Both the position numbers and the translations under genes were made by a program. Below are positions 1-59,863 of a stretch of 64,000 bases of DNA, in pieces. The notes beneath the pieces are model-generated. The model ran no database searches and was not told where the DNA came from. It saw nothing but the letters and a program-made list of their open reading frames with translations. Where the stretch lies: contig NC_057718.1 in assembly GCF_004010195.1 (NCBI RefSeq), positions 57,128,264-57,192,263 on the forward strand, given 5' to 3'. The first letter of the stretch is position 1. Every line of letters begins with the position of its first letter. Source of the stretch: Chiloscyllium plagiosum (lineage: Eukaryota).

Positions 1-19
1 ACACGTAGTGTTTTTGGAG

Positions 20-1035
20 GAGGCAGTGTAGTGATAATATCACTGTACATAAGTTAATGCTTTGGAAACACAGATTCATGGCAGTGGATGGAATTTAATT
101 CCGAATAATAAATCTAGAGTTAAAAGCTGTCTTCATCAATAGCGATCCCAGAATCATTGTCAATTGTTGCAAAAACTCATCTGGTTCACTAATTTCCTTT
201 CAAGGGAGGGAATTTATTCTTATGTGATCTGGCCTACATGTGACAGCACATCCTCAGCAAAGTGGTTGGCTCTTAATTTCCCTCTGAAATTGCTTGGCAA
301 GCACTCGTGGATGTACGATACCTTTAAGGAGACTAAAAGATAGCAGTGATAGCACCAAGTATTCTAAATAAAACACAATGTAACATGTGATCCAGCTACT
401 GCGGTAGCTGGTTGCCTGGAAACGACAAAACATTCAAATTAGGCCAATCAGTTTAAATTATATCCTGAAAAATACCAAATTCCAATCAAGTTTGACTTGA
501 GTATATTGACAATCTTAAAAGCCAATGACACAATCAGATGGTTTGGGGTATAAGACCAGAGAAAATTGAACAGTTGGGAGAAGAACTGCCAAGCCAGCGA
601 CATCTGCACACTGCCCAGAAAATAACTCTCTTAAAAGATACCTTAAACGATCAGTAACCTGTGAAGCAGACTTCCCAAGAAGAAAAAGGCAGGAATTCAG
701 AGAAAACTGAGAGCAGCCTGGTTTTGAAATAAGAAGCGTTGTTTTGTAAATCTTAATTGGGAGTTTTATCGGACTAGTATTCTAGAAGGGAAGGTAAAAG
801 ATAGGTTAGAGGAAGGACTTGTAAACAGTTGTTAGTTAATTATTCTCTTATACTTCAAGAAGTAAAGTTGTTAATTTTTACTTTAACAAGTTCTTGACCT
901 ATCGAATTTTCACAGATTACTGCATGGGGTAAATCTTTTCTGTGTTGCTGGTTTTTAAATTAAGCAGGAGAGTTTACCCCATGTCGTAACAGTTAGGAAT
1001 GGCCAACAAATGGCAGTGATGTCCAAATCCCATTT
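20..1035 (+). mobile_element. Old DeuSINE-like (SacSINE1-like) SINE split by an LTR at 307-991
   Basis: Core ctggttcactaatttcctt...tctggcctacatgtgac...gtggttggctcttaatttccctctgaaat. The tail resumes after 991. Homologous to 18075-18432. Confidence 0.7.
307..991 (+). mobile_element. Solo LTR (Gypsy-like), slightly 5'-truncated
   Basis: TATA-like ggggtataaga at ~545, ends gtcgtaaca. Collinear reverse-complement similarity to 6798-7508 and 28030-28689. Confidence 0.75.
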
Positions 1036-3418: not shown

Positions 3419-3662
3419 TGATTTGGAGATGCCGGTGTTGGACTGGGTTGGACAAAGTTAAAAATAACACAAAACCAGGTTATAGTCCAACAGGTTTATT
3501 TGGAAGCACTAGCTATCGGAGTGTTGCTCCTTCATCAGGTGGTTGTGAAGGAGCAGCACCCCGAAAGCTAGTGCTTCCAAATAAACCTGTTGCACTATAA
3601 CCTGGTGTTGTGTGATTTTTGACTTTGTACACCCCAGCCCAACACTGGCATCTCCAGATTAT
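3419..3662. mobile_element. Fold-back (palindromic) PLE-derived element with degenerate hammerhead motifs
   Basis: Two ~115-bp inverted arms (gatttggagatgccggtgttggactggg... / ...cccagcccaacactggcatctccagatt) around a ~10-nt loop near 3540. Confidence 0.85.
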
Positions 3663-4194
3663 GATGTTGTGTTAATAGAAAAATGGCTTTAAAATGTGAA
3701 GGACTTGAGTGCTTAATATACCATGATACACAATGTACAGAGAAAGATGGACAAAAGGAGGTAAGGTGGTAGCACCGAATAGGAATGATACTGTAATGTT
3801 GGAAAGAACGTTCTTTACAAGGTAAACATTAATCAATTTGTTTAGAGTTGAGAAAGCATCAAAATAGTTCGAGAGAATTGGAGGGGCAAATTGGGGAGGT
3901 AAAATTGGATATAGGGGTCTGGTCAATGTTGAGGAATTGGGAAGATGTCAGGGGTGGGGATGGCCTTCAGTTTTATAGCTAGTTAATTTTTCCCAGGTGG
4001 TGATTCAGGTAATTAAGTCAGAACTCTTCAAAATATCTGCCTTTGCTTCAGAGTTGGTAATTTTTTTCAGAGGCTTCTAGACACATGATAATTGCCCATC
4101 AAAAGTTTAAATCTCCAGTACATTGGGACATCTGAGGGTTTCCCAACAAACATCTTTCAGGGTGTGTGGCCGCAATAGCTATTTTATAATTATA

Positions 4195-10703: not shown

Positions 10704-11020
10704 GATTAGATTAGATTACTTAGTGTGGAAACAGGCCCTTTGGCCCAACAAGTCCACATGGACCCTCCGAAGAGCAACCCACCCAGACTCGCTCCCCTAC
10801 ATTCACCCTTTCACCTAACCAGGCAATTTAGCATGGCCAGTTCACCTAACCTGCACACTTTTGGACTGTGGGAAGAAACCGGAGCACCCGGAGGAAACCC
10901 ATGCAGACACATGGGAAGAACGTGCAAACTCCACATAGACAGTTGCCTGAGGTGGGAATTGAACCCGGGTCTCTGGCGCTGTGAGGCAGCAGTGCTAACC
11001 ACTGTACTACTGTGCTGCCC
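10704..11020 (-). mobile_element. tRNA-derived V-SINE (HE1-like)
   Basis: A/B-box-like head (agtggttagcactgctgcctcacagcgccagagacccgggttcaattccc), V-domain tgggtttcctccgggtgctccggtttc, (taatc)n tail. Confidence 0.9.
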
Positions 11021-19360: not shown

Positions 19361-19902
19361 GTAAACAACAAAACTCAGTAAAATTTAAAATTGAGGCAGT
19401 TATTTAAGGGCTGAACCTGGTGTCACTTTCGATATCTGTCAGGTTGTAATCTTCCACTTTTTCTGCACTGGTTGAAATGGCTGGAGAGAATCAACTGGGT
19501 AGTTTAAATTACTGTGTCCCTACCTATATTTTCAGCCGCCAGATGGATTTGCTCAATGTTGGGATTTGGCCATATAAAATTTGGCCCATTTCAATATTTA
19601 GGTATCCTAGAGAAGAATTATTTTGAAAAATCTCGTGCCCTAAAGACAAAAGTGTAAATCTTTTTTTCATGTTTAACTCTTACTATTTTTGATGTCTTCT
19701 GTCAAAAACTGAATTTGATGTATTATTTGTACAATCCAGGTGGAAGCCATAAAGCACAGGATGAAAATCCTTTGCAATTTCATTCTTCCCATCCGCAAGA
19801 CTTAAATGCCTTGTTGAAAACCTAATTTGATGTTTGGCAACAACTGCTACCTCAGTAATCTGCATTTTTTTTTTGACATATGCATTTTCATGCGTTCATC
19901 AG

Positions 19903-20074
19903 ACAATCAAAAGATGAGTATGAACGGGAGGTAGCAAAGAGATATGCTACTGAGGCAGGAGCCAAAGCTGGATCAACACAAAGTGACTTAGAGAAAGCAA
20001 TTGTGGAGAATGCACAACAGGAGGAAGCTCGGCTTTCCAGACAACACGAACAAGGAAAGGAAAATTTACAACGG
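19903..20074 (+). CDS. CFAP36: CFAP36 internal coding exon
   Basis: Acceptor ttcatcag|, donor |gtaata, 172 nt, phase 2 to 0. Translates (R)QSKDEYEREVAKRYATEAGAKAGSTQSDLEKAIVENAQQEEARLSRQHEQGKENLQR. The start matches CFAP36 RKSKEEY; the donor choice is less certain than the acceptor. Confidence 0.88.
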
Positions 20075-22531: not shown

Positions 22532-24847
22532 CTCCCCCACCCCAGAGAGAGGACCTTGTCTATATACCCTCTCCATGCCCTCAGGATTTTATAAACTTCT
22601 ATAAGATCACCCCTCTGCCTCCAACCCTCCAAGGAAAACAACCCCAGCCTATTCAGCCTCTTCATGTAGCTCAAATCCTCCAATACTGGCAACATCGTTG
22701 TAAATTCTTTCTGAACCCTTTCAAGTTCCACAACATCCTTCCGATAGGAGGGCAAACCAGAATTGCACACAATGTTCCAAAAGTGGCCTAACCAATATCC
22801 TCATGACCTCCCAACTCCTACACTCGATGCTCTGACCAATAAAGGAAAGCATACCAAACGCCATCTTCACTATCCTATCTACCTGAGACTCCACTTTCAA
22901 GGAATGAAAAACTCCAAGATCTCTTTGTTCAGCAACCTTCCCCAGACCTTACGATTAAGTGTATAAGCCATGCTCTGATTTGCCTTTGCAAAATGCAGCA
23001 CCTCACATTTAGCTAAATTAAACTCCTTCTGCCACTCCTCGACCCATTGGCCAAATTGATCAAGATCCCACTGTGTTGTTTCACTGTCCACTACACCTCC
23101 AATTTTGGTGTCATCTGCAAACTTACTAACTTATACCTCCTATGGTCACATCCAAATCATTTATATAAATGATGATAAGCAGTGGACCCAACACCAATTC
23201 TTGTGGCAGACCACTGGTCACAGGCCTCCAGTCTGAAAAGCAACCCTCCACCACCATCCTCTGTCTTGTACCTTTGAGCCAGTTCTGTATCAAAATGGCT
23301 AATTTTCTCTGTATTCCATGAAATCTAACCTTGCTAAGCAGTCTACCATGAGGAACATTGTCAAACGCCTTGCTGAAGTCCATATAGATCACGTCCAGTG
23401 CTCTGCCCTCATCAGTCCTCTTTGTTACTTCTTCAAAAACTCAATCAAGTTAGTGAGACATGATTTCCCAGGTACAAAGCCATGTTAACTATCCTGAATC
23501 AGTTCTTGCCTTTCCAAATGTAAATCCTGTCACTCATGATTCTCTCCAACAACTTGCCCACCATTGATGTCAGTCTCACCTGGCTTTTGCTTACAACTTT
23601 TCTTAAATAGTGGCACCACATTAGCCAACATCCAGTCTTCCTAGCTTCCCACAGATATTGAGGTACGCCTGATCAGATCTTGGGGATTTAGCCACCTTAA
23701 GATATCTAGCACCACCTCCTCGGTAATATGGACATTTTTCAAGATATTATCATCTATTTCCCCACAATCTGTATCTTCCATGTCCTTCTCTACAGTAAAC
23801 ACTGATGAAAAATACTCGTTTAGTATCTCCCCCCTTCTCCTGCGATTTCACACATAGGCTGCCTTGCTGATCTTTAAGGGGCCCTATTCTGTCCCTAGTT
23901 ACCCTTTTGTCCTTAATGTATTTATAAAATCCCTTTGGATTTTCCTTGACCCTATTTGCCAAAGCTATCTCATGTCCCCTTTTTGCCCTCCTGATTTCCC
24001 TCTTAAGTATACTCCTACTGCCTTTATACTCTTCTAAGGATTGACTCAATCTCTGCTGTCTATACCTGACATATGGTTCCTTCTTTTTCTTAACCAAATC
24101 TCAATTTCTCTAGTTATCCAGTATTCCCTCCACCTAACCAGCCTTGCCATTCACCCTACAGAAATAAACTGTCTCTGGACTCTCGTTATGTCGTTTTTGA
24201 AGTCTTCCCATTTTTCATCCATTTCTTTACCTGTGAACATCCGCTCCCAATCAACGTTTGAAAGTTCTTGCCTAATACTGTCAAAATTGGCCTTCCTCCA
24301 ATTTAAAACTTCAACTTTAGATCCTGTTTGTCCTGTTCCATCACTATTTTAAAACTAATAGAATTATGGTCACTGGCCCCAACCTGCTGTATTTCCCAAG
24401 ACTAGGTCACGTTTTGCGCCTTCTCTAGTCGGTACAACCACACACTGAATTAGAATATTTTCTTGTACACACTTAACAAATTCCTCTCCATCTAAACCCT
24501 TAACACTATGTTAGTCCAAGTCAATGTTTGGAAAGTTACAATCCCCTACCATGACCACCGTTTTATTCTTACAGATAGCTGAGATCTCCTTAATAATTTG
24601 TTTCTCAATTTCCTGCTGACTATTGGGGGGTCTATAATACAATCCCAATTAGGTGATTATCTCTTTCTCATTTCTCAGTTCCACCCAAATAACTTCCCTG
24701 GATGTATTCCCAGGAATATCCTCCCTACGTACAACAGCAATGCTATCCTTTCTCAAAAATGCCACTCCCCTCCTCTCTTGCCACCCTCCATTATCCTTCC
24801 TATAGCATTTGTATCTTGGAATATTAAGCTGCCAGTCCTGTCTATTC

Positions 24848-24972
24848 CTGAAGAAGGGCTTATGCCCGAAACGTTGATTCTCCTGCTCCTCGGATGCTGC
24901 CTGGCCTGCTGCGCTTTTCCAGCACCGCACTTTTCAACTCTGGTCTCCAGCATCTGCAGTCCTCACTTTCTC
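24848..24972 (+). mobile_element. Short PLE terminal element beginning at a hammerhead core
   Basis: CTGAAGA-A-GGGC-TTAT-GCCC-GAAA-CGTT...gcatctgcagtcctcactttctc; 15-bp duplication cctgtctattcctga at 24837-24851 and 24973-24987. Confidence 0.85.
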
Positions 24973-28925: not shown

Positions 28926-31086
28926 ACAGAGAAAGTGAGGACTGCAGACTCTGGAGAGTCAGTCAAAAAGTGTGATGCTGGAAAAGCACTGCAGGTCAGA
29001 GAGTATCTGAGGAACAGGGGACCTGACGTTTTGGGCATAAGCCCTTCATCAGCAATGTAAAGGGGGAAGGGGGCTAAGAGATGAATGAGGGGGTTGGGGT
29101 GGGGGTAGGGGGAAGGTAGGTGGGATGGTGATAGGTGGACACAGGTGGGAGGTAATTATGATAGGTCATTGCAGAAGGTGGAACGGATAGGTGGGAAGGA
29201 AGATGGACAGGTAGGATAGGTCAAGAGGATGGTGCCGAGTTGGGAGAGTTGGATCTGGGATAAGATGGGGGTAGGGGAGGGGAGATTTGGAAACTGGTGA
29301 AGTCAGTGTTGATACCATGTGGTTGTAGGGTCCCAAGGCAAATAGTGAGCCATTTTTCCTCCATTTGGCGGGTGGCTTTGATTTGGCAGTGGAGGAGGCC
29401 CAGGAGTTGTTTGTCCTTGGGGAGTGTGAGGTGGAATTGAAGTGGTTGGCCAGAGGGCGGTGGGGAGATAGCTTAGTGGAATTCCGAACAAATTAATATT
29501 ACAGGGAAACTGAGATTGAGTAAAATCAATGTAAGTAAAGCATTGGTAATAAGAATTGGTACGTGCGGACCAAGACGTTACCTGAACCACTCTACGAGTT
29601 GTCAACCTGTCTCCCTGATGTAGAGAGATCACATCGAGAGTAATGGATGCAGTAGATGAGGTGGGTAGATGTGCAGGAAAATTTCCAATGGATTTGAAAT
29701 GATCCTTTAGGGCCTTGGATGGAGGTGAGGGGAGAGGTGTAGGCACAGGTTTTGCAACTCGTGTGGTGGCAGGGGAAGATGCCAGGTGTAGAGGGTAAGT
29801 TGATGGTTGGCATGGCTGTAACAATAGCATCGCAGAGGGAATGGTCTCTGTTGAACGCAAATATGGATGGAGAGGGAAATATATTTTGGTGGTGAGATCT
29901 GAGTGTAGGTGGTGAAAATGGTGGAGTATAATACGCTATATCTGAAGATTCATGGGATGAAGGTGAGGATCAGGCAGATTCTATCCTTGTTGCGGTTGGA
30001 GGAGGAGGGTTCAAGGGCAGAGGTGCAGGAAGTGGAAGAGATGCGATGGAGGGCATTGTTGATCACCTGGGAGGGGAAATTGCAGTCCTTGAAATAGGAG
30101 GTCCTCCTATTCCAAGGACCACAATTTCCCCTCCCACGTAATCCACAATGCCTCCATCGCATCCCCTCAACTTCCTGGACCTCCACCCTCGAACCCACAC
30201 CTCAAACTGCAACAAAGATAGAACCGCCTGGTTCTCACTTTCCACCCCATGGGTCTCCGGATACAGCACATTATCCTCCGCCATTTTCGAAACCTACAGT
30301 CAGACTTCACTACCAAAAATATGTTTCCCTCTCCACACCTATTTGTGTTCCCCCCCAACCCACCCTCTACACATGGCACCTTCCCCTGCCACCACACGAG
30401 GTGCAAAATCTGCACTCGCAACTGGCCCCTCGCCTCTATCCAAGGCCCTAAAAGATAATTTCAAAGATTTTCCTGAACATCTACCCACCTCATTTACTGC
30501 ATCCGTTGTTCTGGATGTGGTGTCTTCTACATTGGGGAGACAAGAGCCAACTCACGAAGCAGTTCAGGGAACATTTCTGGTACGCACACACCAGACAACC
30601 CCACTGCCCTATAACCAACTACTTCAACACCCCTGTCACACGTTCCCATTGACATGCAAATCCTGGGCCTCCTTCAATGCCACCTGCCCAGTGGAGGAAG
30701 AACACCTCATCTTCTATCTCAGGACCCTACAACCACATGGCATTAACATTGACTTCATCAGTTTCCAAATGTCCCCTCTCCCCACCTCATCCCAGATCCT
30801 ACCCTTCCAACTTGGCACTGCCCCCTTGACCTGTCCTACCTGTCCATCTTCCTTCCCACCTATCCGCTCCACCTTCCAAACTGACCTATCACAATTACCT
30901 CCCACCTGCATCCACCTATCACCATCCCACCTACCTTCCCCCCATGCCCACCCCAACTCCCTTATTCATCTGTCAGCCCCCTTCCCTATCCACATTGCTG
31001 ATTAAGGGCTAATACCCAAAATGTCGACTCTCCTGCTTCTCAGATGCTGCCTGACCTGCTGTGCTTTTCCAGCACCACATGTTTTG
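28926..31086. mobile_element. Penelope-like element as a 2.2-kb inverted (fold-back) pair of 3' halves
   Basis: GIY-YIG-linker motif CxxC (CHHTSCKTC...FSCTSTHLIYCI) on the minus strand left and on the plus strand right. Symmetry centre ggagg-t-cctcc at 30102; acttaaaa repeated at 28918-28925 and 31087-31094. Confidence 0.88.
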
Positions 31087-32613
31087 ACTTAAAATCTGTT
31101 CAATGACACGTTGGAATCATGCAGGTGCTGATGTAATTCCAGTTGGAAGTCTCTTGTATTTGAATAGTTGTTTATATGTAACAATCATTAAGAATTTCTG
31201 TGACTTAGCATCTCTCAGGTTCATCTGGAGATAAGCTTGACCGAGGTTCATTTTACTAAGAAGCTGACCTCCAGCTAATGCAGCAAATAGATCATTGATT
31301 ATAGGCAAAAGAAACTGCTCAGCACGCAGTCTCAGATTTATACTGATGTTAAGATCTCCCCAGATGCATACCTATCCATTTTAATTCATCACTGGTATCA
31401 TGTCTAGGCATTGCCCAATCACACTCACTCACGGATTCAGGGTCTCTTGACTTGACCAGCCTCTCTGATTTTGCTTCAACTTTTTGTTTTGATTGCCTAA
31501 CACACTGATCTAGACTTGGAATATTTTGTTTGATTCTCATCCTTGATTTTCAGTTTGACAGAGACCTTGTCAAAGCTTCCTAGGTCCCCATTGAAAATAA
31601 TGGAATGTTTCTTTAGAATTTGTGATTAGCTCAGTCTCAGAATCTGACAAATGATTTACTTCAGCCCAATAGAGTTTGGTTATCTCCAACCATGTTCTTC
31701 CCAATGGAGCTAGAAGATTTCCTTTGATAACATGCATGGACAAATCTTCTGATTGATTGAATTACTGAACATTCATACAATTCCTTAAAGATACCACTTC
31801 ACCAAATAAGTTCTTAGTACAATTTTTGCGGGTTGCAACACAATGTGACTCAGCTGCTTTGATACATACTTTCAGGTATCAATGAAGCCATTTCTCGGTG
31901 TCCACCTCCATTCTTACTGGTTTGCCATTCATTAAGGGAATGACCCAGTATCAGTATCAGTTGGTGTCTCCAGTAATGACCGTTATGTTTTAATAATAGC
32001 CCCTGTTCGGACTCAGAGGCTGGGCTTTTGCCATTGAGCGTCCTTGCCTGTTAGTTCTGCCGAGATTACAATTTCATATGCTTTTTTTAGGCCTTTCTGT
32101 CAGTAATTTCTTCTGGATTGTCTCACATCTTAAACCACACATCAGTCTGTCTCTGATAGGATCATTTAAGTTGTCTCTGCATTCATGATATTCTACTAAC
32201 TTGTTTAAAATTGCTATGAACTGGGAGATAGATTCACCATCAAGCTGTTTGCCTTTCTGGAATCTGAAGCTTTCGGTAATAAGTAATGCTTTTAGTGAAA
32301 AATTATTCTTGTAGGATTCCTACTATTTTGTCATAAAGTTTGGAACTTGGATTTTCTGGCTGTACCAAACTCCTGTGAAGGTTAGGAGTTTCTCCCCTCA
32401 CAGTATGAGGAATGCAGGGACAACTATACCTGCTTCAATTTTGTAATCTTGTACAAAATAATGGAATTTGTGTAGAAATCCTATACAGTCCTATGTCACC
32501 AAAATTTTGTAATTCTTACAAAAATAGGGCCTGCACAGTACGATGTGCCATGAAAATTTTGCTTCTTGCTGTTTAAAATAAGGTATTGCTGAGGTTGCCT
32601 GTTTCTTTCAAGT

Positions 32614-36700: not shown

Positions 36701-37425
36701 CTCTCCACCACTAGCTCAAAACATTCCCATCCTTGTAGCATGCTCATTACTCGCATTTGTAATGAGGACCAGAATTGTTTTTTGATGAATCCCTGGATTG
36801 CCCTGGTGGATCTTGAAGCAGATTTTATCCTGTTCTGATTGTGTTATGTTTCAAGATAGACCAGGGACTGTAAAATTTAAAATGACGAGCTTTTATCAGG
36901 AAGTGTTCACTCAATATGGCAATAAGCTAGATTGAATTGTTTACCTCCAAAATGGCCAAAGATGTCACCATCATGCCAGGTGATCATACTATTAAGGTGA
37001 CTCTACAACATACTTCCAGAAATGCACAACAGATTCGAGAGTTTTAAAATGTTATCCTGTCCTGTCCCAACTCACATTTTCTTGGGTTTAAAATACCCCA
37101 ATTGCATTCTAATTGAACCATGGCAAAAAATTACAACATGCTTATTAATTGTGCAAAGTGTATATGACCTGAACAGGGAAAGAAATGGGTGCCGAAGTAG
37201 GCTATTCATCCCATCAAGGCTGTTCGCCATTCAAATAGATCATGTTCTGAATGAAGAAATGTTGCCTCATCTCTGTCTTAAACGGCCTTCCTCTTATTCT
37301 AAACTCACCAGCTAGGAGAAGCAACGAGGTAAAAACAATGCCTGCAGATGCTGGAAACCAGATTCTGGATCAGTGGTGCTGGAAGAGCACAGCAATTCAG
37401 GCAGCATCCGAGGACAGGCAAAATC

Positions 37426-37453
37426 GACGTTTCGGGCAAAAGCCCTTCATCAG
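37426..37453 (-). ncRNA. Minimal type I hammerhead ribozyme motif
   Basis: CTGATGA-A-GGGC-TTTT-GCCC-GAAA-CGTC: full core, 4-bp stem II, palindromic ACGT, GUC triplet. The 5' strand of stem I is lost in the gap. Confidence 0.75.
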
Positions 37454-37823
37454 NNNNNNNNNNNNNNNNNNNNNNNNNNNNNNNNNNNNNNNNNNNNNNN
37501 NNNNNNNNNNNNNNNNNNNNNNNNNNNNNNNNNNNNNNNNNNNNNNNNNNNNNNNNNNNNNNNNNNNNNNNNNNNNNNNNNNNNNNNNNNNNNNNNNNNN
37601 NNNNNNNNNNNNNNNNNNNNNNNNNNNNNNNNNNNNNNNNNNNNNNNNNNNNNNNNNNNNNNNNNNNNNNNNNNNNNNNNNNNNNNNNNNNNNNNNNNNN
37701 NNNNNNNNNNNNNNNNNNNNNNNNNNNNNNNNNNNNNNNNNNNNNNNNNNNNNNNNNNNNNNNNNNNNNNNNNNNNNNNNNNNNNNNNNNNNNNNNNNNN
37801 NNNNNNNNNNNNNNNNNNNNNNN
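37454..37823. other. Assembly gap (370 N)
   Basis: Run of N. Confidence 1.
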
Positions 37824-38205
37824 TGGGCGCAGGTTTTGCAATTCCTGCAGTGGCAAGGGAGTGTGCCAGGATGGGAGGGTGGGTCGTAGGGGGGCGTGGA
37901 CCTGACCAGGTAGTCACAGAGGGAACGGTCTTTGCGGAAGGTGGAGAGGGGTGGGGAGGGAAATATATCCCTGGTGGTGGGGTCTGTTTGGAGGTGGCGG
38001 AAATGTCGGCGGATGATTTGGTTTATGCGAAGGTTGGTAAGGTGGAAGGTCTCTCCCTCCTATTTTTTGTCCATTAACCAATTCCCAGTCCATTCAAATA
38101 TATTGCCCCCAGTCCCATAGGCTTTAATTTCGTTTACTAATCTAGTGTGAGGCATTATTGAAACATCCAACTTATCTTATTCTTTATCAAGAAAATGGAA
38201 TTAAA

Positions 38206-39681: not shown

Positions 39682-40006
39682 GATTAGATTAGATTACTTT
39701 AGATTACTTTACAGTGTGGAAACAGGCCCTTCGGCCCAACAAGTCTACACCGACCCGCCGAAGCGCAACCCACCCATACCCCTACATTTACCCCTTACCT
39801 AACACTACGGACAATTTAACATGGCCAATTCACCTGACCTGCACATCTTTGGACTGTGGGAGGAAACCGGAGCACCCGGAGGAAACCCACGCAGACACGG
39901 GGAGAATGTGCAAACTCCACACAGTCAGTCGCCTGAGGCGGGAATTGAACCCGGGTCTCTGGCGCTGCGAGGCAGCAGTGCTAACCACTGTGCCACCGTG
40001 CCGCCC
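39682..40006 (-). mobile_element. Young V-SINE (HE1-like)
   Basis: Complete head gggcggcacggtggcacagtggttagc, V-domain, (taatc)n tail, CpGs retained. Confidence 0.92.
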
Positions 40007-40319
40007 AAGATGGTAGTTATAGATTAGGAGGGTAGGGGGGGGAGGAGCGGCGGTGGGCAGCAATCAAGCTGAAAGAGGAGCCGTGGTTAACATTTAGAGG
40101 TGAAGGTAAGTTAAGGCTCAATAAATTGGAGCAACGTTGAGAGAGCAGATAATTTTGAAATCCCTTGTGCTGTTCGCTTCAGAATTTATCCCAGTTCAGG
40201 TGGATGGTTTCCATTTTCTTATCTGAAATTGAAGTAATAAATTATGTGGAGATTTTGAGGAACCTGTTGCTTTGTAGTGTAGTAAGTATGACTGTTTTAA
40301 CATGCCAAATTTTTTACAG

Positions 40320-43642: not shown

Positions 43643-43868
43643 ACTGACAGAAAGTATCCACTTAGAACCCTGTCTACATCCTCCAGCTCCATGCAGAGAT
43701 TACTATTATGATCCTTAATGGACCCAACTCTTTTCCTAGTTATTCTTTTAGCCTTAATGTACATGTAAAATAACTTAGAATTTTCCTTTATTTTGCCTGC
43801 CATAATCCTTTCAAGTTCCCTTTTGCTCTCCTAATTTACTTTTTAAGATCCCCCTTGCATATTCTATA

Positions 43869-44448
43869 GTATTGCATATTTTAACAAGGACATCTACTTC
43901 AAACTCACCTCCTACCACTCCCTCTCCTGTAAAAATGCCATCCCTTACTCCCAATTCCTCCGCATCCGCTGTATCTGCTCCCAGGAGAAGCAATTCCATT
44001 CCAGGGCATCCCAGATGGCTTCTTGTGATCAACAGTGCCTTCCAGCGCATCTCTTCCACTTCCAATATCTCCACCCTTGAGCCCCACCCCTCCACCCACA
44101 ACAAGGATAGGAAGAAAGCCTCATCTTCTGCTTTGGGATCCTTCAACCACACAGCATCAATGGTGACCTCATCACTTTCCAAATCTCACCTCCCCCCACC
44201 TCATCCGAGATCCAATCCTCCAACTCAGCACCACTTAAACTGTCCTAACTGCCCATCTTCCTACCCACCTATCTGCTCCACCCTCACCTCTGCCTTATCA
44301 CCATCACCCCACCTGCATCTACTTATCGCCTTTCCAGCTACCCCAACCCCACTTTCCTGATGAAGGGCTTATGTCCGAAACCTCGACTTTCCTGCTCCTC
44401 GGATGCTGCCTGACCTGCTGTGCTTTTCCAGCGCCACACATTTCGACC
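43869..44448 (+). mobile_element. Internally deleted PLE with hammerhead motif at 44357-44384 and 11-bp TSD
   Basis: catcccttactcccaattcctccgcatccgc (IPYSQFLRIR, PLE post-RT motif); ctgatgaagggcttatgtccgaaacctc; catattctata at 43858-43868 and 44449-44459. Confidence 0.82.
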
Positions 44449-45544
44449 CATATTCTATACTCCTGTCAGGCTTCTGCTATTTTGAGCCCTTAGTATCTGC
44501 CGTATTCCTCCCTTTTTCCCTTTATCCAAGTCTATATATCCCTTATTTTCCAGGGATTGCTAGATTTGTTAGTCCCACCCTTTATCTGGATTGAATAGTA
44601 CAACCTCAATGTCTGAGGCTCCCTCAACATTACAGTGAAGCTTGTTGTCGAAGGGTAGTGAAAAATATGATGCTGTTAAAATTGATGGGCATAGACTGAC
44701 CCACTGACAATAAACAGTTGACTAAAACCATTTGTTTCACCTTGATGTTTTGTGAATGTTGTGGATTAACACGGTTTCATCGCGAAGACTGTATTTTTAA
44801 AACCTTATTCATCCCGAATAAGCTTTTACACCTAATCTCAATGAACAAAACAGGCAGCAAATGTGTTTCTTAATAGTAGATTTGGAGGGCTAATGGTAGA
44901 AGATTTGAAAGTTGTCATTTTCCTCCATCCACACACAGGATCAATGTTGATTTCACCAGTTTCCTGATCTCCCCTCCCCCCACTTTATCCCATCCCTCCC
45001 TCCCATAAGAGAACCACACCACCCATATAATCAGGCCTGATTAATAGTTAGATGGATAAGAACAAGATTCTAGGTTTGTAACTGAGAGCCAGCTACTAGT
45101 CAGACTGATAGAGGAGTTGACGTCAGAGGAGTCTTGCATTATAATGATAGTTAGAATGAGCAGACAATCTCAATTGCCTCCATGACTTACAGTCTAGCAG
45201 GTTCAGGGTTTCAGAGTTAGAAATGTAAGACCCTTTAATGCTTAAGCAGAACAGCACCAGAGTTGGTTGAGGGTAGATAAAGCTTATTAGACTTCTTGAG
45301 TTTCCCCAGGGAATTAGTTTCTGGATAGAGAAAGGGTTCAGAAAGGAAAGATATCTGTGCTAAACTATATCTTTGTAGTAAAACTTCCGTAAATCTTTGA
45401 AAATATTTTGCACCTTTTTGAACAAATGGATATTGATGTATGAAACATGGTAACCTTGACCTCTTCAGATTGGAAGGCATAGAAAGCAGAAGGTAATTAT
45501 TTTTTCTGCTAGAAACAAAGCTCCTGGTGACTTTTTAAAAGTGA

Positions 45545-46930
45545 AACAGTTGATAAGGGTACCTTCTGCTAGACTACTTAATAAGGTAAGTGCCCATGGT
45601 TCTGAAGGTAGTATATCTGCATGGATAGATGAATGGCTAACTAATTGCAGATAGTGTTGGGAAAGGGGCGTCATTTTCAGGACAACAACCTGCAACTAGC
45701 CGAATGCCACAGGAATAGTGCTGGGATTACAATTATTTACAATATATATCAGCGACCTGGGTGAGGAAAGTGAATATACTGGAGCCAAGTTTGCAGAAGA
45801 CACAAAAATAGGTGGGAAGGCAAATGGTGAGGATGACACAAAGAGTTTGCAGAGGAATATACACAGGTTAAGTGAGTGGGCAAAAAACTTGGTAGATGGA
45901 ATATAACGCTGGAAAATATGAGGTTATGCACTTTGTTAGGAAGAATAGAGGAGCTAACTATTACGTAAATGGAGGAAGACTGCAGAAAGCTACAGAACTA
46001 GAGGGCTGTAGGGGTCCTTGAGCACAAGTCACAAAAAGCTAGCATATAATGGAGTGGGCGGCACGGTGGCACAGTGGTTAGCACTGCTGCCTCACAGCGC
46101 CAGAGACACGGGTTCAATTCCCGCCTCAGGCGACTGACTGTGTGGAATTTGCACGTTCTCCCTGTGTCTGCGTGGGTTTCCTCCAGGTGCTCCGGTTTCC
46201 TCCCACAGTCCAAAGATGTGCAGGTTAGGTGAATTGGCCATGCTAAATTGCTCCTAGTGTTAGGTAAGGGGTACATGTAGGGGTATGGGTGGGTTGCGCT
46301 TCGGCGGGGTGGTGTGGACTTGTTGGGCCAAAGGGCCTGTTTCCACACTAAGTAATCTAATCTAATAATTTCAGGCATTAGAATGGAATGTTGACCTTCA
46401 TTTCAAAGCGGACGGAATATTTTATCATTTAAACTATACAAGGCACTAGTCAGACCACAATTACACAGTTTTGGTCCCCTTAGCTCAGGAAATATATCCT
46501 GAAATCAGAGGCAATTCAGAGAATGTTCACGAGGTTGATCCCAGGTATGGAAAAATTGTCTTATGAGGAGAAGTTGAGTAAGTTGGGCCTGGAGTTTGGA
46601 AGAATAAGTTAAATTGAAATATAGAAGATTCCGAAGGAATGGGAAGGCGTGGGTATGGGAAGGCGTTTCCCCTAGTGAGAGCCTAGGATCAGAAACCATA
46701 AGCTCAGAACAAGAAATTGCCCATTTAAGACAAAGATGAGGAGGAATTTCTTCTTGAAGTGTAGTGAATCTGTGGAATTCTTTATCAAAGCTGTAGAGAC
46801 TAGGACATCAAATATATTCAAGGTGAAATAGACAGATTCTTAATTAGTAAGGGAATTGAGGGTTATGGGGAAAAAGAAGGAATGTAGAGTCGAGGATTAT
46901 CAGATTATCAGCCAGGATCTCATTGAATGT
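45545..46930 (+). mobile_element. Decayed CR1 3' half interrupted by a V-SINE
   Basis: LGLQLFTIYISDL..AKFAEDTKIGG; 3' UTR gatctcattgaat. Confidence 0.85.
46056..46364 (+). mobile_element. Young V-SINE (HE1-like)
   Basis: gggcggcacggtggcacagtggttagc...taatctaatctaa. Confidence 0.92.
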
Positions 46931-47104: not shown

Positions 47105-47434
47105 TTTAGAATCCCCACAGTGTGGAAACAGGCCCTTTGGCACAACAAGTCCACACTGACCCTCCGAAGAGTATCCCACCCAGACCTATTACGCTACATT
47201 CCTCTGACTAATGTACCTAACCTACACATCCCTGAACATTATGGGCAATTTAACTTGGCCAATTCACCTAACCTGTGCATCGTTGGATCCAGGAAACTGG
47301 AGCACCCAGAGGAAACCCATGCAGACACAGGGAGAATGTGCAAACTCCACACACAGTCACCCGAGGCTGGAATATAATCCGGGTCACTGGCGCTTTGAGG
47401 CAGCAGTGCTAACCACTGAGCCACTGTGCCGCCC
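47105..47434 (-). mobile_element. V-SINE (HE1-like)
   Basis: Reverse complement of head and V-domain; more diverged. Confidence 0.88.
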
Positions 47435-48029
47435 AAATGGAAAGGAATCTTTCAAAGAATTGCTCTTGTGCATCTCCAGTAATACTTGCTATATATGCAA
47501 AAGTTCAGGAAGGCAAAAGAATAATAAAGGAATTAGTTGTGGCAATGTAACAATCATCATAATCTTGTCTCTCATAGTTCAGTTATTTATGGAGAAAGAT
47601 GTGTGTCAGAAATGCTTTTAATACTGTCTCCAGCCTTTTGTAAGTTCCCAATCTCTTCAACTCTTAACTTCACTTAACTTCATTGCTATCCTCTCCATTT
47701 GATCATTTCAAAATTTGTGACTGGCCTCTTCCTTTGATTTTTAAAAATATTTTCTAAGATAAACAAAGCCTGTGAATGACTGAAAGTCTCATTTGATGGA
47801 GTCCATTTGGTGAACATGATGAGAAGACAGACATATCATATTGCATAAGGATTAGAGTGAGTGGCAGTGGCGGATAGAGAAATTAGGCGATGAGAATGTA
47901 CATAAAAAGCGAAGAATGTGTTCTACTGAAACTTAAATAAAACACTTTGGCAGAGGTGACAGCAGTCCTGATTAACTGGCAGGTAACATTAGAATGTGAA
48001 TGATTAGGCAATGAATGCTGCATGTTGTA

Positions 48030-49579: not shown

Positions 49580-50600
49580 AAGTTGGCGACAGATTAGGGG
49601 GCAGAGCTGAGAGTTCATCTGCTCCCATCGGCTTTCTTATTTTTCTTCTTTTAACTTTTGCTTTTTTAAAAATTTTTGTTTTCCCATAATTTTTTATCTT
49701 AAAACCTGAAGAATAGCAGTTGACAGAAGAGGCTTTCGGCAGCAGTGGCAGCAATGCAAGGACAATCCAGACATGGCTCTGATCTGGCCTGGGGTCTCCC
49801 TGCGAGTGAGGAGTAGGTCCCAAGCTGACACACCAGCCCAGAATTACAAGTTGGCCTGGGCACCTGAAAGTGATGAAGAAGTGGCAATATCAGCTCAGCA
49901 TTGCGGTCTTGTCCCAGTGTAGAGGTTTTCTTCATCTTCAGCTTCCAGGTATTCCAATGGCCCGGTAGGTGGTCTTGGTCTGGCATGGCGGTCTTCTTTG
50001 GCGGAGGTTTCCAGCTCAATATTCCAGCAGCCCGATATGGCGTTCTCACCCTGGAATGGTGGTCTCGTCCTGACTACGTCTTCTGGGTTTTTCAATTGTT
50101 TCCTTAATCAGCTTTCCACAAGCCCTGGAGCCATTAACTGAATTATGATGAACTTTGTCTTAATTTTACGTTTTTTTATTATGTTGACTTCTGCCATTAA
50201 TATAGGTACCTTGGTAAAGATTAGATTCAATTACCTACAGTGTGGAAACAGACCCTTCGGCCTAACAAGTCCACACCGACCCGCTGAAGCGTAACCCACC
50301 CATTCCCGTACATTTACCTAACACTACGGGCAATTTAGCATGGCCAATTCACCTGACGTGCACATCTTTGGACTGTGGGAGGAAACCGGAGCACCCGGAG
50401 GAAACCCACGCAGACACGGGGAGAATGTGCAAACTCCACACAGTCAGTCACCTGAGTCGGGAATTGAACCCGTGTCTCTGGCGCTGTGAGGCAGCAGTGC
50501 TAACCACTGTGCCACCGTGCCGCCCAAAAGTGACTTATAAAACTTTTCACTGTATTTTTCATGTAAAAATACATGCGACAATAAATTTCTATTCTATTCT
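49580..50600 (+). mobile_element. Probable non-autonomous non-LTR element with GC-rich body, interrupted by a V-SINE
   Basis: 3' end ttttcactgtattt...atacatgcgacaataaa(ttcta)n resembles a LINE tail hairpin plus microsatellite; no coding motif recognised. Confidence 0.45.
50219..50525 (-). mobile_element. Young V-SINE (HE1-like)
   Basis: Highly similar to 39682-40006. Confidence 0.92.
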
Positions 50601-53497: not shown

Positions 53498-55553
53498 GTA
53501 TCTACCAAAACAACAAATGCAAACCCAAAGGCAATATTGATGTAATTGATGATTTTGGAGACTGATTGCAACGTAGTTGAATATGGATCATATTTAATGG
53601 AAAAATTGAATTACATTTGACTGTAAAGAATAAAATTTGTTCATGTTTTTCCAGGAATTAAATGTGATACTTCTATAATCTCCCTTTCAATGATTGATTA
53701 CACTTTTGTGAATTAAGTTTGACAGGTATGACATAAGAATAATGACAGTTCTGAGCCATCCAGCCTACTCCCTATAATTACAAACTTGATACAGCATAAC
53801 ATATACTCTCCTTATTCAATCCAAAATCAGGAGAATGCCAGTGAATGGCAGAAATAACAGATTGAAAACTCATCTGGAGAAAATAATCTGGAAAATTTAT
53901 TTCTGATCTATTTTCTTCATTTTTTTGTGTTAGCTATAGGCACTACAGGTACTAGACCTCTGCTGGCAAGAGGGAGACAAGTGTTATAGGTTAAATAATA
54001 CCGTTCCACATTAAGCAGTTATAATCTCCATGGAGGTATTGAAAGGGTTAGTAGATTGATTATCAATCTGTTTGGCCAAATGATGCACACTGCTGTGGCT
54101 AATAAGTCCTGGAGCAGAACTTGAATCTGGGTAATTCTTATCTGGGTAATCAAAACGAGTGCAGTTGATCAATCTGCACCTGAAATACACCTTTAATACA
54201 CCTTTAATGCACTTTAATGTCCACCTCAACCAGGCATTTCACATAGATCTCGTCTTACACAATTCGAAATGTGACCTTTGGAACTGCGACAGACTCTGTC
54301 CCCTCATTGTACAACTCAGTCTGATCACACATATCTGTGCTTTTCTAAAATATAGAATCACAAATCTTTTACCTTATATTGATACCTAATATTTTTCACA
54401 CTGGGGGTTAGTCAAGTGACCTTCCTCTGCATTCTTTCCAAAGTCTTCGCATCATCCAGCATGTGAGGAGACCAAAACAGGACCAAGTAAGCGCTGATCA
54501 ACGGTTTGTATCCAAACAAAATAATATGCTTTGTCTCATACTTGTTTGTCCTTTGAATAACCCCCGCAATCTAATTAACCTAGCTATCACTTCACAATAT
54601 TTCTTACATGTCTTTTGAGATGTATTAGAGCCTGACTTTTTTTTTCACTACTTTCTGCTTGTAAGTTCACGTTGTTGTTCTTTGCAGAAGTTTAAACATT
54701 TACCTATTATCATCAGCATCTGATGCAGCAGGAACAAATTTAAAATAATGAAACATATTCAATATTCAGCGAAAGATTTTAGTAAGAGTATAGAGGAGCA
54801 GTGCTGAACATTTCTAATGGAAAAGATAGCAGAACTACAGCAGTGCTACTGAAAGCAGCAAGATAACTTCAGGCATTCTATAATGCACATTATGTAGCTA
54901 CAATGTGGCATCTACAATGATTTGGATGGCAGAGGCACGCAGTTGTTATTGAAACTGCAGCTGATGACTACGAGAAAGAGGATTAGCTTTTACATAATGC
55001 ACTTATTTAATTACTTTGATTCTAGTCACTATTATAAAATAGAGAAACATTACAGCCGATTAGTACACAATAACGTGCTACAAATGACAGGTAACTGACT
55101 TGATATTCGGTTTATTGGTGATGCAGGTTTCAGAATATATATTGGTTATAATAAATGGAGCTATTGTTTGCTTCTTCCTCAATTTGAAGAATTGAATTTT
55201 TCAATCCATATGAAAAGAAAAAGGGGTCTTCTGACTTGAAGTCCAATCCAAATGTCTGCAGCTCTGACAGTGCAAGTCTCCCCCAACTGCAATGAAAGTT
55301 TTGTTCTGAATTATGCATCAGTATTTGATCAATTGATAAGATCTTGGGGGGTAAACATCTGAGGCTGCGATTCTTCTCACTTGCCTCCAAATAACTGTTA
55401 GGTTGATTTATACCAAACAGTGATAAGCTTAAGTGTACTAATAAGCTGTATAATTTTGATGATTAAACTCTAGCATAACATTACATTATTTAGGATTCCT
55501 CACCCTTGGTTGTTACCAATCTGTAAGAACATTATACAATCTGAAAAAAAGGA

Positions 55554-55747
55554 CACAACACCAGGTTATAGTCCAACAGGTTTAATTGGAAGCACTAGCT
55601 TTCGGAGCGCTGCTCCTTCATCAGGTGGATGAAGGAGCAGCGCTCCGAAAGCTGGTGCTTCCAATTAAACCTGTTGGACTATAACCTGGTGTTGTGTGAT
55701 TTTTAACTTTGTACACCCCAGTCCAACACTGGCATCTCCAAATCATG
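55554..55747. mobile_element. Young fold-back PLE-derived element with hammerhead motif
   Basis: Near-perfect inverted arms around the loop caggtg; left arm shorter; flanked by tgaaaaaaagga at 55542-55553 and 55746-55757. Confidence 0.88.
55593..55627 (-). ncRNA. Minimal type I hammerhead ribozyme motif
   Basis: cac-CTGATGA-A-GGAGC-AGC-GCTCC-GAAA-GCTA-gtg: stem I cac/gtg, 5-bp stem II, palindromic AGCT, CUA triplet. Confidence 0.75.
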
Positions 55748-55799
55748 AAAAAAAGGAAGCGGCATTATTTTTGCAAGTGTAACTATCTGAGCTGCTGTC

Positions 55800-56750
55800 A
55801 GGAAACAGCAGGCAAATCAGTTAACCTCAGTGGTGGGGAAATGATTGGAAGCAATTCTGAAGGACAGAAGTAATCTGCACTTGGAGAGGCAGAGATTAGT
55901 CAAGAACAATCAGCATGGTTTTGTTAAGAGGAGGTCATGTTGATGAACTTGATTAAATTTTTCAAAGAGGTAACCAGGTGTGTAAATGAGAGCAATGTGT
56001 TGACATAGTCTACTTGGACTTCTTCAAGGCTTTTTTAAAGGTCATGATTTGGAGGTGCCGGTGTTGAACTGGGTTGTACAAGGTTAAAAATCACACAACA
56101 CCAGGTTATAGTCCAACAGGTTTATTTGGAAGCGCTAGCTTTCGGAGCGCTGCTCCTTCCTCAGGTGGATGAAGGAGCACCTGATGAAGGAGCAGTGCTC
56201 TGAAAGCTAGCACTTCCAAAATAAACCTGTTAGACTATAACCCGGTGTTGCGTGATTTTTTTCCTTTTAGAGGTCAGCATGGGAGACTGATAGTAAAGAT
56301 AAGCGCCTAGGGGATTCCGAGGAAATTGGACCAATTAGATCCTGAATGAATTGTGTGGCAGGAAGCAGACACTGATGATTGAAGTGTGTTTTTATGACTG
56401 GAAGCCTGTGTCCAGTGGGATTCTGTAGGATCAGATTTGGGGCCCTTGCTGTTTGTGGTATAAGTAAGCAATTTAGACTAGAATGTAAGAGAGTTTATCA
56501 GGAAGTTTGCAGATGTTATGAAAATTGGTGGGGGTGATAAATAGTGAGGAGGATAGCCTTAGATTACAGAAAATATAGACAGACTAGTCAGGTGGGCTAT
56601 CAGTGGCAAATGGAATTCAGTCCAGATAAGTGTGAGGTGATGCACTTGGGCAGAACAATGAAGGTAAAGGAACACATGATGAATGGTAGGACCCTGGGAA
56701 GAACTGAGAATCAGAGGGACATTAGTGCACATGTCAATCGTTTCCTTAAG
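55800..56750 (+). mobile_element. Decayed CR1 RT fragment interrupted by a fold-back element
   Basis: NQHGFVKRRSC, VYLDF.KAF, KFADV and WQMEFSPDKCEVMHLG motifs. Confidence 0.85.
56045..56262. mobile_element. Fold-back PLE-derived element with hammerhead cores on both strands
   Basis: Minus 56136-56164: CTGAGGA-A-GGAGC-AGC-GCTCC-GAAA-GCTA. Plus 56181-56209: CTGATGA-A-GGAGC-AGT-GCTCT-GAAA-GCTA. Flanks ttttaaaggtca / ttttagaggtca. Confidence 0.88.
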
Positions 56751-58384: not shown

Positions 58385-59863
58385 AAATACCACCAGAGAC
58401 AGGGTGGTGGTAGAAGATTTTTGTTTGGACTGGAGATCATGACCAGCAAAGTGCCACAAGGATTGGTGCTAGCTCCACTGTTGTTTGTCATTTATATAAA
58501 TGATTTAGATGAGAATTTAGGAGGCTTGGTTTGTGGATGACACCAAAGTTAATGGTATAATGAACAGTAAAGAAGGTTATCTAAGAGTACAATGAGATCT
58601 TGATCAGCTGGGCCAATGGACGGGGAGTGGCAGATGTAGTTTAATTTAAATAAATGTGAAGTGTTGCATTTTAGTGACACAAACCAGAGCAGGACTTACA
58701 CAATTAATTGGAGGGCCTTGGGGAGTATTGTTTGAACAAAAAGACCTAGGAGTGGAGGTACATAGCTCGCTGAAAGTGGCGTCACAGGTAGACAGGACAG
58801 TGAAGAAAGCATTTGGCATGCTTGCGTTCATTGGTCAGATCATTGAGTACAGGAATTGGAATGTCATGTTGTGGCTGTACAAGACACTGGCAAGGCCACT
58901 TTGGAGTACTGTGTACAATTCTAGTCACTGCTATAGGAAGTATTTACTAAAATGGAAAGGGTACAGAGAAGATTCACAAGAATGTTACCTGGATGGAAGG
59001 CTTGAATTAGAGGGAGAAACTGGATAGGCTGGGACTTCTTTTTGCCTGGAATGTAGGAGGCTGAGACAGAAATCTTGATTAAGTTTAAACAAAATGTCTG
59101 CAGTTGAAATGATTATGTTTAAACAAAATGTCTGAAGTTGAATGCATATTGTACAAGTTACTTGAGTGGAAAATAATAAGTAGAAACTGTGTAGCTGCAG
59201 AAAGCAAGGACAGAATGTTCTCGCAAAAGGCAGGGCTGACCACTACAATGTCAAGCACCCCGGTGCTTAAGTAAGATGATTGGAAGAAAGTGAGGGGGTG
59301 GAAGCGGGTATAAAACTACGAGTATGTGACTCCCACATGGGCAGTTGGAATCGGAAGGAAAGCGGTAGAGATCTACCGCTCATGTAATTTTTTTTTGAAG
59401 TTCAACCAATAAATAATTTTTAAAAATTAACAATCCCTGGTGGTCTCATGTGTGATTTGTTATGCAATCTTCAAACTCAACAGGTGACCTGACAGAGGTT
59501 TATAAGGTTATGAGAAAAATAGGTAAGGTGTATAGTTTAGGTCTTTTCCTAAGCTGTGGGTCCAAGACTTTTGGGCATAAGTTTAAGGTGAGAGGGGAAA
59601 GATTTAAAAGGGACCTGTGGGGCAACTTTTTCACAAAGAGCGTGGTGTGTATGTGAAACGAACAGCCAGAAGAAGTGGTAGAGGCGAGTACTGTTACATT
59701 TAAAAGACATTTGGAAAGGTATATGGATAGGCAAGGTTTAGAGAAATATGAGCCAAACGTAGGCAATTGGGACTAGTTCAGTTTAGGAAACCTTATGGGC
59801 ATGGATGAGTTAGGCTGAAGGATCTGTTTCTGCGCTGTATGTATGTATGATGGTATGACTCTT
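58385..59863 (+). mobile_element. 5'-truncated CR1 interrupted at ~59067-59482
   Basis: KDLGVEVHSSLKVASQVDRTVKKAFGMLAF; resumes GDLTEVYK; tail tatgactct. Confidence 0.88.
59067..59482 (+). mobile_element. LTR-like insert in CR1
   Basis: Splits CR1 aggctgag|ggtgacct; contains gggtataaaa and aataaa and ends caaca. No clean TG start or TSD. Confidence 0.55.

What the first reader, a model, noticed from the sequence alone, without database searches (positions are those of the whole stretch)
55554..56262. Fold-back mini-elements carrying mirrored hammerhead ribozyme motifs on both strands
Seen: two adjacent ~200-bp near-perfect hairpins, plus an older copy at 3419-3662. Their centre is a hammerhead core CTGANGA-A-GGAGC-loop-GCTCC-GAAA-GCTA, and the 56045 copy has a complete core in each polarity. 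Arm lengths and loops differ among the three copies, and the flanking duplications are ~12 bp of unrelated sequence. That fits poorly with a MITE, which needs both TIRs and a fixed short TSD. Known: minimal hammerheads with palindromic stem III occur in Penelope-like terminal repeats, and PLEs often insert as inverted structures. Inference: this is a non-autonomous, non-coding, retrozyme-like family mobilised by a PLE, whose RNA would be a rod with ribozymes of both polarities, formally like viroid-like RNAs.
Basis: partly seen in the sequence, partly recalled or inferred. Interest (0 to 1): 0.85.

Follow-up and report, generated by a model that had tools for sequence, protein, structure and literature searches.

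The report
Dead-end Penelope retroelement leader hairpins
The hairpins are real head-to-head pairs of the short, hammerhead-bearing end of an abundant Penelope-like jumping gene, most likely made anew as dead ends at each insertion rather than spreading as a viroid-like RNA, and their very sharp lengths suggest a testable idea of how these elements copy themselves.

Summary
The three fold-backs, the hammerhead letters and two 12-bp target duplications are real. They are not a separate non-coding family. Each arm is the terminal repeat of an autonomous Neptune-type Penelope-like element (RT + GIY-YIG, about 3.3 kb) found in this genome; the longer arm ends exactly at that element's start codon. 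At least about 12,700 such fold-backs exist. Junctions are diverse, duplications are 10-17 bp, and one arm carries the 37-nt 'tail' (67 of 74 pairs). This is the published Penelope insertion pattern, and opposite-strand hammerhead pairs were noted in 2014. This scan reported the same kind on other DNA. The rod/viroid reading fails: folding a hammerhead inside the hairpin costs about 46 kcal/mol. Extra findings: arm ends stop sharply about 10 nt before the hammerhead, 30 nt after a TATA box; RNA is polyadenylated upstream of both outer arm ends; arm lengths are coupled (both short or both long). The likely mechanism is twin priming in the mRNA's 5' leader, run-off at the cap, and end-joining. 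I found this model in none of six literature searches; it is inferred and untested.

The parts
55553..55748 (.). Copy 2: head-to-head fold-back insertion (untailed arm left, tailed arm right)
55553..55628 (-). Copy 2 untailed arm, element positions -4 to about +72/+78
55596..55624 (-). Intact minimal type-I hammerhead: core, 5-bp stem II, palindromic stem III, 3-bp stem I
55628..55748 (+). Copy 2 tailed arm, +2 to +121; core truncated; ends at the element's start codon
55664..55669 (+). Poly(A)-signal hexamer at +38..+43 (mirror copy at 55581-55586 on the minus strand); family RNAs are polyadenylated at about +55..+58
55542..55553 (+). Copy 2 target duplication, left copy (right copy 55746-55757; 12 of 12 identical)
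56045..56264 (.). Copy 3: fold-back insertion (tailed arm left, untailed arm right) with a short duplicated piece at the junction
56136..56164 (-). Hammerhead core letters, stem I reduced to 1 bp
56181..56209 (+). Hammerhead core letters, G-U at first stem-II pair, stem I 1 bp
56033..56044 (+). Copy 3 target duplication, left copy (right copy 56265-56276; 11 of 12 identical)
3419..3663 (.). Copy 1: older fold-back, tail on both arms (1 of 74 pairs), no intact core, no duplication found

Best explanation
Each hairpin is a pair of 5'-truncated terminal-repeat copies of an autonomous Neptune-type Penelope-like element, joined head to head, likely formed anew at each insertion as a dead-end product of twin priming in the mRNA's 5' leader. 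SHOWN: the arm is the element's repeat; a TATAAA lies at -40, the hammerhead at 0 to +31, a poly(A) signal at +38, poly(A) addition at about +55..+58, the two outer arm ends at about +82 and +121, and +121 is the ORF start codon. INFERRED: transcription starts near -10. The element's protein makes a staggered double cut (about 12-13 nt). Each DNA end primes reverse transcription at one of the two internal sites (+82, +121). An mRNA that ends at +57 holds these sites only in its 5' leader, so both cDNAs run off the capped end after about 90 and 130 nt and are end-joined through microhomology. Only RNAs that read through the poly(A) site offer the same sites at the 3' end and give long, ORF-bearing inserts. 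The hammerhead is a passenger and would be locked in the duplex. Confidence: about 0.9 that these are de novo dead-end Penelope inserts; about 0.6 for the full leader-priming mechanism.
For: Parent element: arm-bearing loci run upstream into RT thumb and GIY-YIG sequence; 19 of 20 ORF-selected loci have the arm about 1.2-1.5 kb downstream; tail runs directly into the ORF in 11 of 11 aligned copies, ATG kept in 10. De novo formation: diverse junctions; 10-17-bp duplications in 47 of 74 pairs, 3 more of 8 bp, against 3 of 290 mismatched-flank controls; tail on exactly one arm in 67 of 74; both arms share the A/T marker at +39 in 61 of 65 pairs (39.9 expected) and a 2-nt indel in 57 of 61. Sharp inner end: identical anchors with centre gaps 2-25, 26-55, 56-85, 86-115, 116-145 give 491, 2,055, 6,268, 14,590, 2,066 strand matches; weighted arm starts are 42% at -10..-1, 5% below -10, 5.5% at +20..+29, so no peak at the ribozyme cut site (104 arms); 23 of 26 arms in 769 kb of unselected sequence start between -16 and +46. 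A second, unrelated Penelope family shows the same cliff: 19 of 31 resolvable copies start at -12..0, none at -13..-39 (read by eye). Two independent cDNAs: the tailed arm reaches further 5' in 22 pairs, the untailed in 20, tie 4 (46 pairs). Coupled lengths: 15 of 15 inverted partners of ORF-bearing inserts reach -47 or further (30 loci examined, 15 without partner). Poly(A): 359 + 435 reads with non-templated A runs at about +55 and +58 in one polyA RNA run; such reads continue upstream of -5. In vitro precedent: the anole element cuts and extends both strands and initiates at two internal sites bounding the tail (PMC11167929).
Against: The start site is predicted from a TATA distance only; the RNA run showed no pile-up of 5' ends, and Drosophila Penelope has a TATA-less internal promoter (PMC2377424). 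Of 12 copies that reach the leader, only 4 start at -13..+2; 3 start inside the leader and 5 start upstream (-54 to -341), which needs longer templates or jumps. The leader holds the poly(A) signal too, so it must be bypassed near the promoter; untested. The second family has only a TATA-like motif near -35 and one short-plus-long mixed pair. 4 of 61 pairs disagree at the indel marker. The poly(A) reads come from unknown copies and from one sample, about 2% of the run. Histogram weights rest on 9-17 loci per bin and omit centres over 145 nt. No intact uninterrupted ORF was found among 10 near-full-length copies.
Confidence: 0.6

Rival explanations
1. Ordinary 3'-end priming on read-through RNA, with the reverse transcriptase stalling just after the protein-bound hammerhead, gives the same short head-to-head products.
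For: Needs no second priming location; the anole protein binds the hammerhead-proximal RNA and assists its cleavage (PMC11167929); the cliff sits at the hammerhead's 5' edge in two families.
Against: The stop lies beyond the structure, not at its 3' base; independent stalling predicts long arms with short partners, but 15 of 15 partners are long; polyadenylation removes the 3' priming sites.
Confidence: 0.17
2. Short RNAs transcribed from truncated, TATA-bearing copies (or from an internal promoter) are mobilised in trans by the element's protein, a SINE-like source of the same arms.
For: Would give the same start at -10; thousands of promoter-bearing truncated copies exist; trans-mobilisation by terminal repeats is published (PMC3846280).
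Against: Such RNAs would meet the poly(A) site at +57 before the priming sites; arms carry the same subfamily variants as full-length copies; no distinct non-autonomous sequence was seen.
Confidence: 0.1
3. One cDNA folds back on itself and is copied (snap-back self-priming), as proposed for palindromic junctions in rotifer Penelope elements.
For: Junction microhomologies of 1-2 nt in the window copies; arms share markers; self-priming proposed in PMC3846280.
Against: It predicts the tailed arm always reaches further 5'; the untailed arm does so in 20 of 46 pairs, 16 by 5 nt or more; it does not explain the fixed +82 end; many junctions have filler bases.
Confidence: 0.07
4. One reading: a self-propagating non-autonomous retrozyme-like family whose rod RNA carries working hammerheads of both polarities.
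For: Very high copy number; 8 of 74 pairs keep core letters on both strands, 3 pass a strict test; some junctions recur (21 copies of one); animal retrozymes derive from Penelope repeats (bioRxiv 10.64898/2026.07.22.740005).
Against: No tandem same-polarity units; junctions diverse; the recurring junction is found with the tail on either side (5 vs 7) and with both markers; hammerhead fold costs 45.5-48.7 kcal/mol in the hairpin against 4.0 in a single arm; on either strand the sense ribozyme is transcribed after its complement; minis lack the TATA box; no reads in the unique flanks of this locus (about 2% of one run).
Confidence: 0.05
5. A MITE with terminal inverted repeats, moved by a DNA transposase.
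For: Short, palindromic, high copy.
Against: Outer ends unequal by about 37-40 nt, duplications 10-17 bp and variable, partner is an RT/GIY-YIG element.
Confidence: 0.01

Closest known systems
Insertion units of endonuclease-bearing Penelope-like elements (pLTR, adjacent inverted 5'-truncated copy, 30-40-bp tail at one end; PMC8557442 Fig. 2, PMC3846280; passages read)
   Same: Head-to-head inverted repeat, tail on one arm, palindromic junction, target duplication of variable length (8-10 bp in the rotifer), RT + C-terminal GIY-YIG parent.
   Different: Here most inserts are the extreme short form with no ORF at all; duplications centre on 12-13 bp; the tail ends at the start codon instead of lying inside the ORF; inner ends stop at a sharp boundary.
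Minimal type-I hammerheads of metazoan Penelope repeats (Cervera and De la Pena 2014, PMC4209133; parts 1-2 of 4 read)
   Same: Core, bulged base before stem II, G10.1-C11.1, palindromic 15.2-16.2, short stem I; the paper already notes dual motifs about 100-700 bp apart on opposite strands and ascribes them to truncated elements.
   Different: New family sequence; the two motifs here are nearly adjacent (0-30 nt); stem II is 5 bp and stem I 3 bp.
Poseidon element of Anolis carolinensis (Frangieh 2024, PMC11167929; parts 1-2 of 4 read)
   Same: Two internal initiation sites bounding the tail, near the hammerhead and ORF start; both strands cut and extended; ribozyme not needed for insertion.
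   Different: Poseidon clade, ORF starts inside the hammerhead; the paper does not link 5' run-off or a poly(A) site to inverted mini-inserts in the parts read.
Non-LTR retrozymes of animals (bioRxiv 10.64898/2026.07.22.740005; part 1 of 5 and passages read)
   Same: Non-coding, hammerhead-bearing, derived from Penelope repeats.
   Different: Defined as head-to-tail tandem units with same-polarity ribozymes; these are inverted pairs with unique junctions.
Avsunviroidae and viroid-like RNAs (PMC11722881; passages read)
   Same: Hammerhead letters on both strands; rod-like predicted fold.
   Different: Those are replicating circles whose two ribozymes are selected to fold during transcription; here the second polarity is a mirror copy that blocks folding.

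Membership tests
EN+ Penelope-like element, Neptune/Nematis type (parent) | Single ORF with Penelope-type RT (DKG motif, RT core) and C-terminal GIY-YIG endonuclease | tested here: met
   Motifs read directly; weak RVT_1 hit E=0.0016; homologues carry PF00078 and PF01541. Pfam alone did not detect the endonuclease.
EN+ Penelope-like element, Neptune/Nematis type (parent) | [quoted passage not shown] | tested here: met
   CX4CxxC linker and VVY..C...C...YIG read; definition from PMC8557442.
EN+ Penelope-like element, Neptune/Nematis type (parent) | Phylogenetic placement in Neptune rather than Nematis | not tested
   No tree with named references; 'Neptune-type' rests on the linker motif and on recalled knowledge that vertebrate linker-bearing elements are Neptune.
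Penelope-like insertion unit | Pseudo-LTR formed by partial tandem, holding a minimal hammerhead | tested here: met
   Same repeat at both ends of near-full-length copies.
Penelope-like insertion unit | Inverted 5'-truncated copy and 30-40-bp tail at one end only | tested here: met
   67 of 74 pairs; same in ORF-bearing inserts.
Penelope-like insertion unit | Target duplication of variable length | tested here: met
   10-17 bp in 47 of 74, control 3 of 290.
Minimal type-I hammerhead | Conserved core, G10.1-C11.1, palindromic stem III, stems I and II; covariation between families | tested here: met
   Two families share the core with different stems II, III and I. Strictly met by 1 of 6 strands in the window copies.
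Minimal type-I hammerhead | Self-cleavage as a dimer | not testable with these tools
   No RNA ends piled at the cut site; no arm-end peak there.
Non-LTR retrozyme | Tandem head-to-tail units each with a same-polarity hammerhead | tested here: not met
   Window copies and 74 pairs are inverted.
Non-LTR retrozyme | Propagation as a unit (shared junction and length) | tested here: not met
   no full tree was built.
Non-LTR retrozyme | Abundant circular RNA | not testable with these tools
   No RNase R or total-RNA raw run was offered.
MITE | Equal terminal inverted repeats, fixed 2-9-bp duplication, DDE partner | tested here: not met

The most novel reading that the evidence does not exclude
Penelope-like elements have an LTR-like RNA layout (promoter / repeat / priming region): the poly(A) site lies upstream of the two priming sites, so normal mRNAs can be primed only in the 5' leader. 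Twin priming there yields strong-stop-like cDNAs that are end-joined into tens of thousands of mini fold-backs, whose inner ends mark the transcription start; only read-through RNAs yield long copies. This would explain the inverted structure, the one-sided tail and the flood of solo hammerheads in animal genomes in one model.
Probability: 0.55. Interest if true: 0.6.

Novelty: new member of a known kind. Interest (0 to 1): 0.38.

Why it matters
As an element it is ordinary: Penelope-like inserts of this shape are published and this scan has met them repeatedly. The value lies in the statistics. The Penelope transposition cycle is described as still undefined (PMC8557442). More than ten thousand natural products with a sharp inner boundary, two fixed outer ends and a mapped poly(A) site give concrete predictions for the existing in vitro system. 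It also warns that two-polarity hammerhead 'rods' in animal genomes or transcriptomes can be retroelement debris and not viroid-like RNAs, and that such arms scatter poly(A) signals on both strands.

Tried and rejected
Rfam scan: no hammerhead family at E<=1; only hairpin-type miRNA chance hits and two U6-like pieces. Pfam on endonuclease pieces: nothing; PDB sequence search: nothing below E 0.47. Protein atlas gave no result. Sequencing-run search: no RNA holder listed; run X22 laid 0 reads, so no test; contig runs X1, X6, X15 cannot show starts or strand. Cleavage-site hypothesis (template 5' end made by the ribozyme at +29): rejected, no peak. An apparent excess of changes at the cleavage base in tailed arms is selection bias from searching with copy 2. 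Core conservation within the family could not be judged from pattern-selected loci. First-strand jump from leader to 3' end as the source of long inserts: disfavoured because partners of long arms are long. Two copies starting at -341/-340 share no upstream flank; unexplained. [quoted passage not shown] Supplements of the cited papers were not read.

Full report
Observation. The three fold-backs are present as described. Positions are given relative to the first C of the hammerhead core (0) in element sense. Copy 2 joins an arm from -4 to about +75 with an arm from +2 to +121; copy 3 joins -4..+121 with -3..about +82; copy 1 joins -9..+120 with +4..+121. Copies 2 and 3 each have their own 12-bp target duplication, so they are independent insertions 290 bp apart; copy 1 has none. 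Only the minus strand of copy 2 passes a strict hammerhead test; copy 3 has core letters on both strands but a broken stem I on both. Rfam finds no hammerhead, as expected for minimal variants.

The parent element. A search of the genome with one arm gave 3,662 candidates. Among 30 fetched loci the shared sequence extends upstream of the hammerhead by anything from 0 to over 1.4 kb, through a CA-rich untranslated stretch into GIY-YIG and RT-thumb coding sequence. Walking upstream gave near-full-length copies of about 3.3 kb. The ORF has the DKG motif, RT core motifs, a CX4CxxC linker and a cysteine-bearing GIY-YIG domain, which by PMC8557442 (passages) is the Neptune/Nematis type. Its nearest named relatives are unnamed shark proteins at 72-92% identity. 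The same repeat stands at both ends, and the 'tail' runs straight into the ORF in 11 of 11 aligned copies; the tail ends at the start codon, kept in 10. The 3' repeat ends at +79..+88 in 7 of 8 copies where it was found (10 examined). All 10 copies are broken by stops or frameshifts.

Abundance. In 80 unselected 10-kb pieces (768,714 non-N bases; 20 lie next to the window, all on large contigs) there are 26 arms at about 18 loci, 6 of them mini fold-backs. That extrapolates roughly to 80,000 loci and 28,000 minis, with wide error. Exact-anchor patterns give 25,470 strand matches, at least about 12,700 loci.

Made anew at each insertion. In 74 fold-back pairs (5 unselected, 3 window, 66 selected by similarity or pattern; 7 duplicate loci dropped) the tail is on exactly one arm in 67, and 47 have 10-17-bp duplications against 3 of 290 controls. 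Junctions are mostly unique. Copy 2's junction occurs 21 times, with the tail on either side (5 vs 7) and with both subfamily markers, which fits recurrent microhomology joining and not descent. The two arms of a locus share the +39 marker in 61 of 65 pairs (39.9 expected) and a 2-nt indel in 57 of 61, so they usually come from one template or source. Arms differ by 7.8% within loci and 10.0% between loci. This layout is published: inverted 5'-truncated copy, one-sided 30-40-bp tail, 8-10-bp duplications, palindromic junctions (PMC8557442; PMC3846280), and opposite-strand hammerhead pairs ascribed to truncated elements (PMC4209133).

The rod RNA. Forcing a hammerhead inside the hairpin costs 45.5-48.7 kcal/mol, against 4.0 in a single arm. 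On either strand the sense ribozyme is transcribed after its complement. Minimal hammerheads are reported inactive as monomers and weak as dimers (PMC4209133), and each strand here holds one. Both strands pass a strict test in 3 of 74 pairs. No read of the one raw RNA run fell in the unique flanks of this locus (about 2% of the run, so weak). The motif itself is genuine in the parent: a second family in the same genome keeps the core with different stems.

A sharp inner boundary. With the same anchors and growing centre gap the counts are 491, 2,055, 6,268, 14,590 and 2,066. Weighted arm starts are 42% at -10..-1, 19% at 0..9, 18% at 10..19, 5.5% at 20..29 and 5% below -10 (104 arms of 52 pairs; 55 loci examined). 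Equal-geometry patterns give 6,976 at the hammerhead edge, 491 near +40 and 234 near -45 (anchors differ, so not normalised). There is no peak at the cut site (+29). A TATAAA lies at -40, which by textbook spacing puts a start near -10. A second family shows the same cliff: 19 of 31 resolvable copies start at -12..0, none at -13..-39, 12 further upstream (34 listed, 3 hidden by N; read by eye).

A poly(A) site before the priming sites. In a polyA single-cell run, 359 and 435 reads carry non-templated A runs at about +55 and +58, 14-17 nt after a hexamer at +38 whose two subfamily forms are the two common poly(A) signals, and before a GU-rich stretch. Such reads continue upstream of -5 (63 reads), so they are 3' ends of longer RNAs. 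Which copies they come from is unknown. An mRNA ending there lacks +82 and +121 at its 3' end and has them only in the leader.

Two cDNAs, coupled lengths. Single snap-back predicts that the tailed arm always reaches further 5'. It does in 22 of 46 pairs; the untailed arm does in 20; 4 tie (6 of 52 pairs left out for unclear tail). In ORF-bearing inserts all 15 inverted partners reach -47 or beyond (30 loci, 15 without partner), while about nine in ten arms of unselected loci stop at -16 or inside. The anole protein cuts and extends both strands and starts at two internal sites bounding the tail (PMC11167929).

Mechanism. Shown: parent, layout, duplications, one-sided tail, inner cliff, poly(A) site, coupled lengths. 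Inferred: start near -10; staggered double cut; priming at +82 and +121 in the leader; run-off; end-joining; long inserts from read-through RNA. Against: the start is unmapped; Drosophila Penelope has a TATA-less internal promoter (PMC2377424, passages), so minis might keep some promoter activity; only 4 of 12 leader-reaching copies start at -13..+2, and 5 start upstream; the leader's own poly(A) signal must be bypassed; one mixed pair was seen in the second family. Stalling at a protein-bound hammerhead remains the main rival.

Novelty. The element and the insert shape are a new member of a known kind. Earlier notes of this scan reached the same classification on other DNA (seen after my reading was formed). 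The leader/twin-priming model was not found, which cover open-access text only. Interest 0.38; novel case probability 0.55, interest 0.6 if true.

Noticed in passing
window 28961-31089: A 2.1-kb fold-back of a second Penelope-like family (different hammerhead stems, ORF remnants in both arms, junction near 30100): the long form of the same insertion pattern. More pieces of this family at 2791-2870, 24770-24960, 37333-38060, 43800-44456.
   Followed up: partly
L061-L140 (second family): Divergent subfamilies of the second family keep a TTATC motif about 30-35 nt before the hammerhead, a possible promoter element at the same distance as the first family's TATA box.
   Followed up: no
family position +38..+43; window 55664-55669 and mirror copies: Each arm carries a poly(A) signal with a GU-rich downstream stretch, so fold-backs offer potential 3'-end sites on both strands of host transcripts.
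   Followed up: partly
L242:1733 and L243 (sense 1807): Two near-full-length copies start at the same position (-341/-340) with unrelated flanks; unexplained second boundary.
   Followed up: partly
window 14336-14443 and 58927-59031: Two degenerate U6 snRNA-like copies (57.8 and 30.9 bits), probably retropseudogenes.
   Followed up: no
window 10719-11023, 39710-40009, 46054-46349, 47116-47437, 50236-50528: A 300-bp SINE-like family with copies up to 97% alike; also found inserted inside Penelope arms (L027).
   Followed up: no
window 55930-56750: CR1-like LINE RT fragment (family name recalled) interrupted by copy 3; many similar fragments across the window.
   Followed up: partly
L049 (sense 5300-5700): A near-full-length copy sits directly beside a histone H4-like gene on the opposite strand.
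   Followed up: no
window 19877-20146: Open frame that looks like a host exon (coiled-coil-like); the host gene context was not worked out.
   Followed up: no
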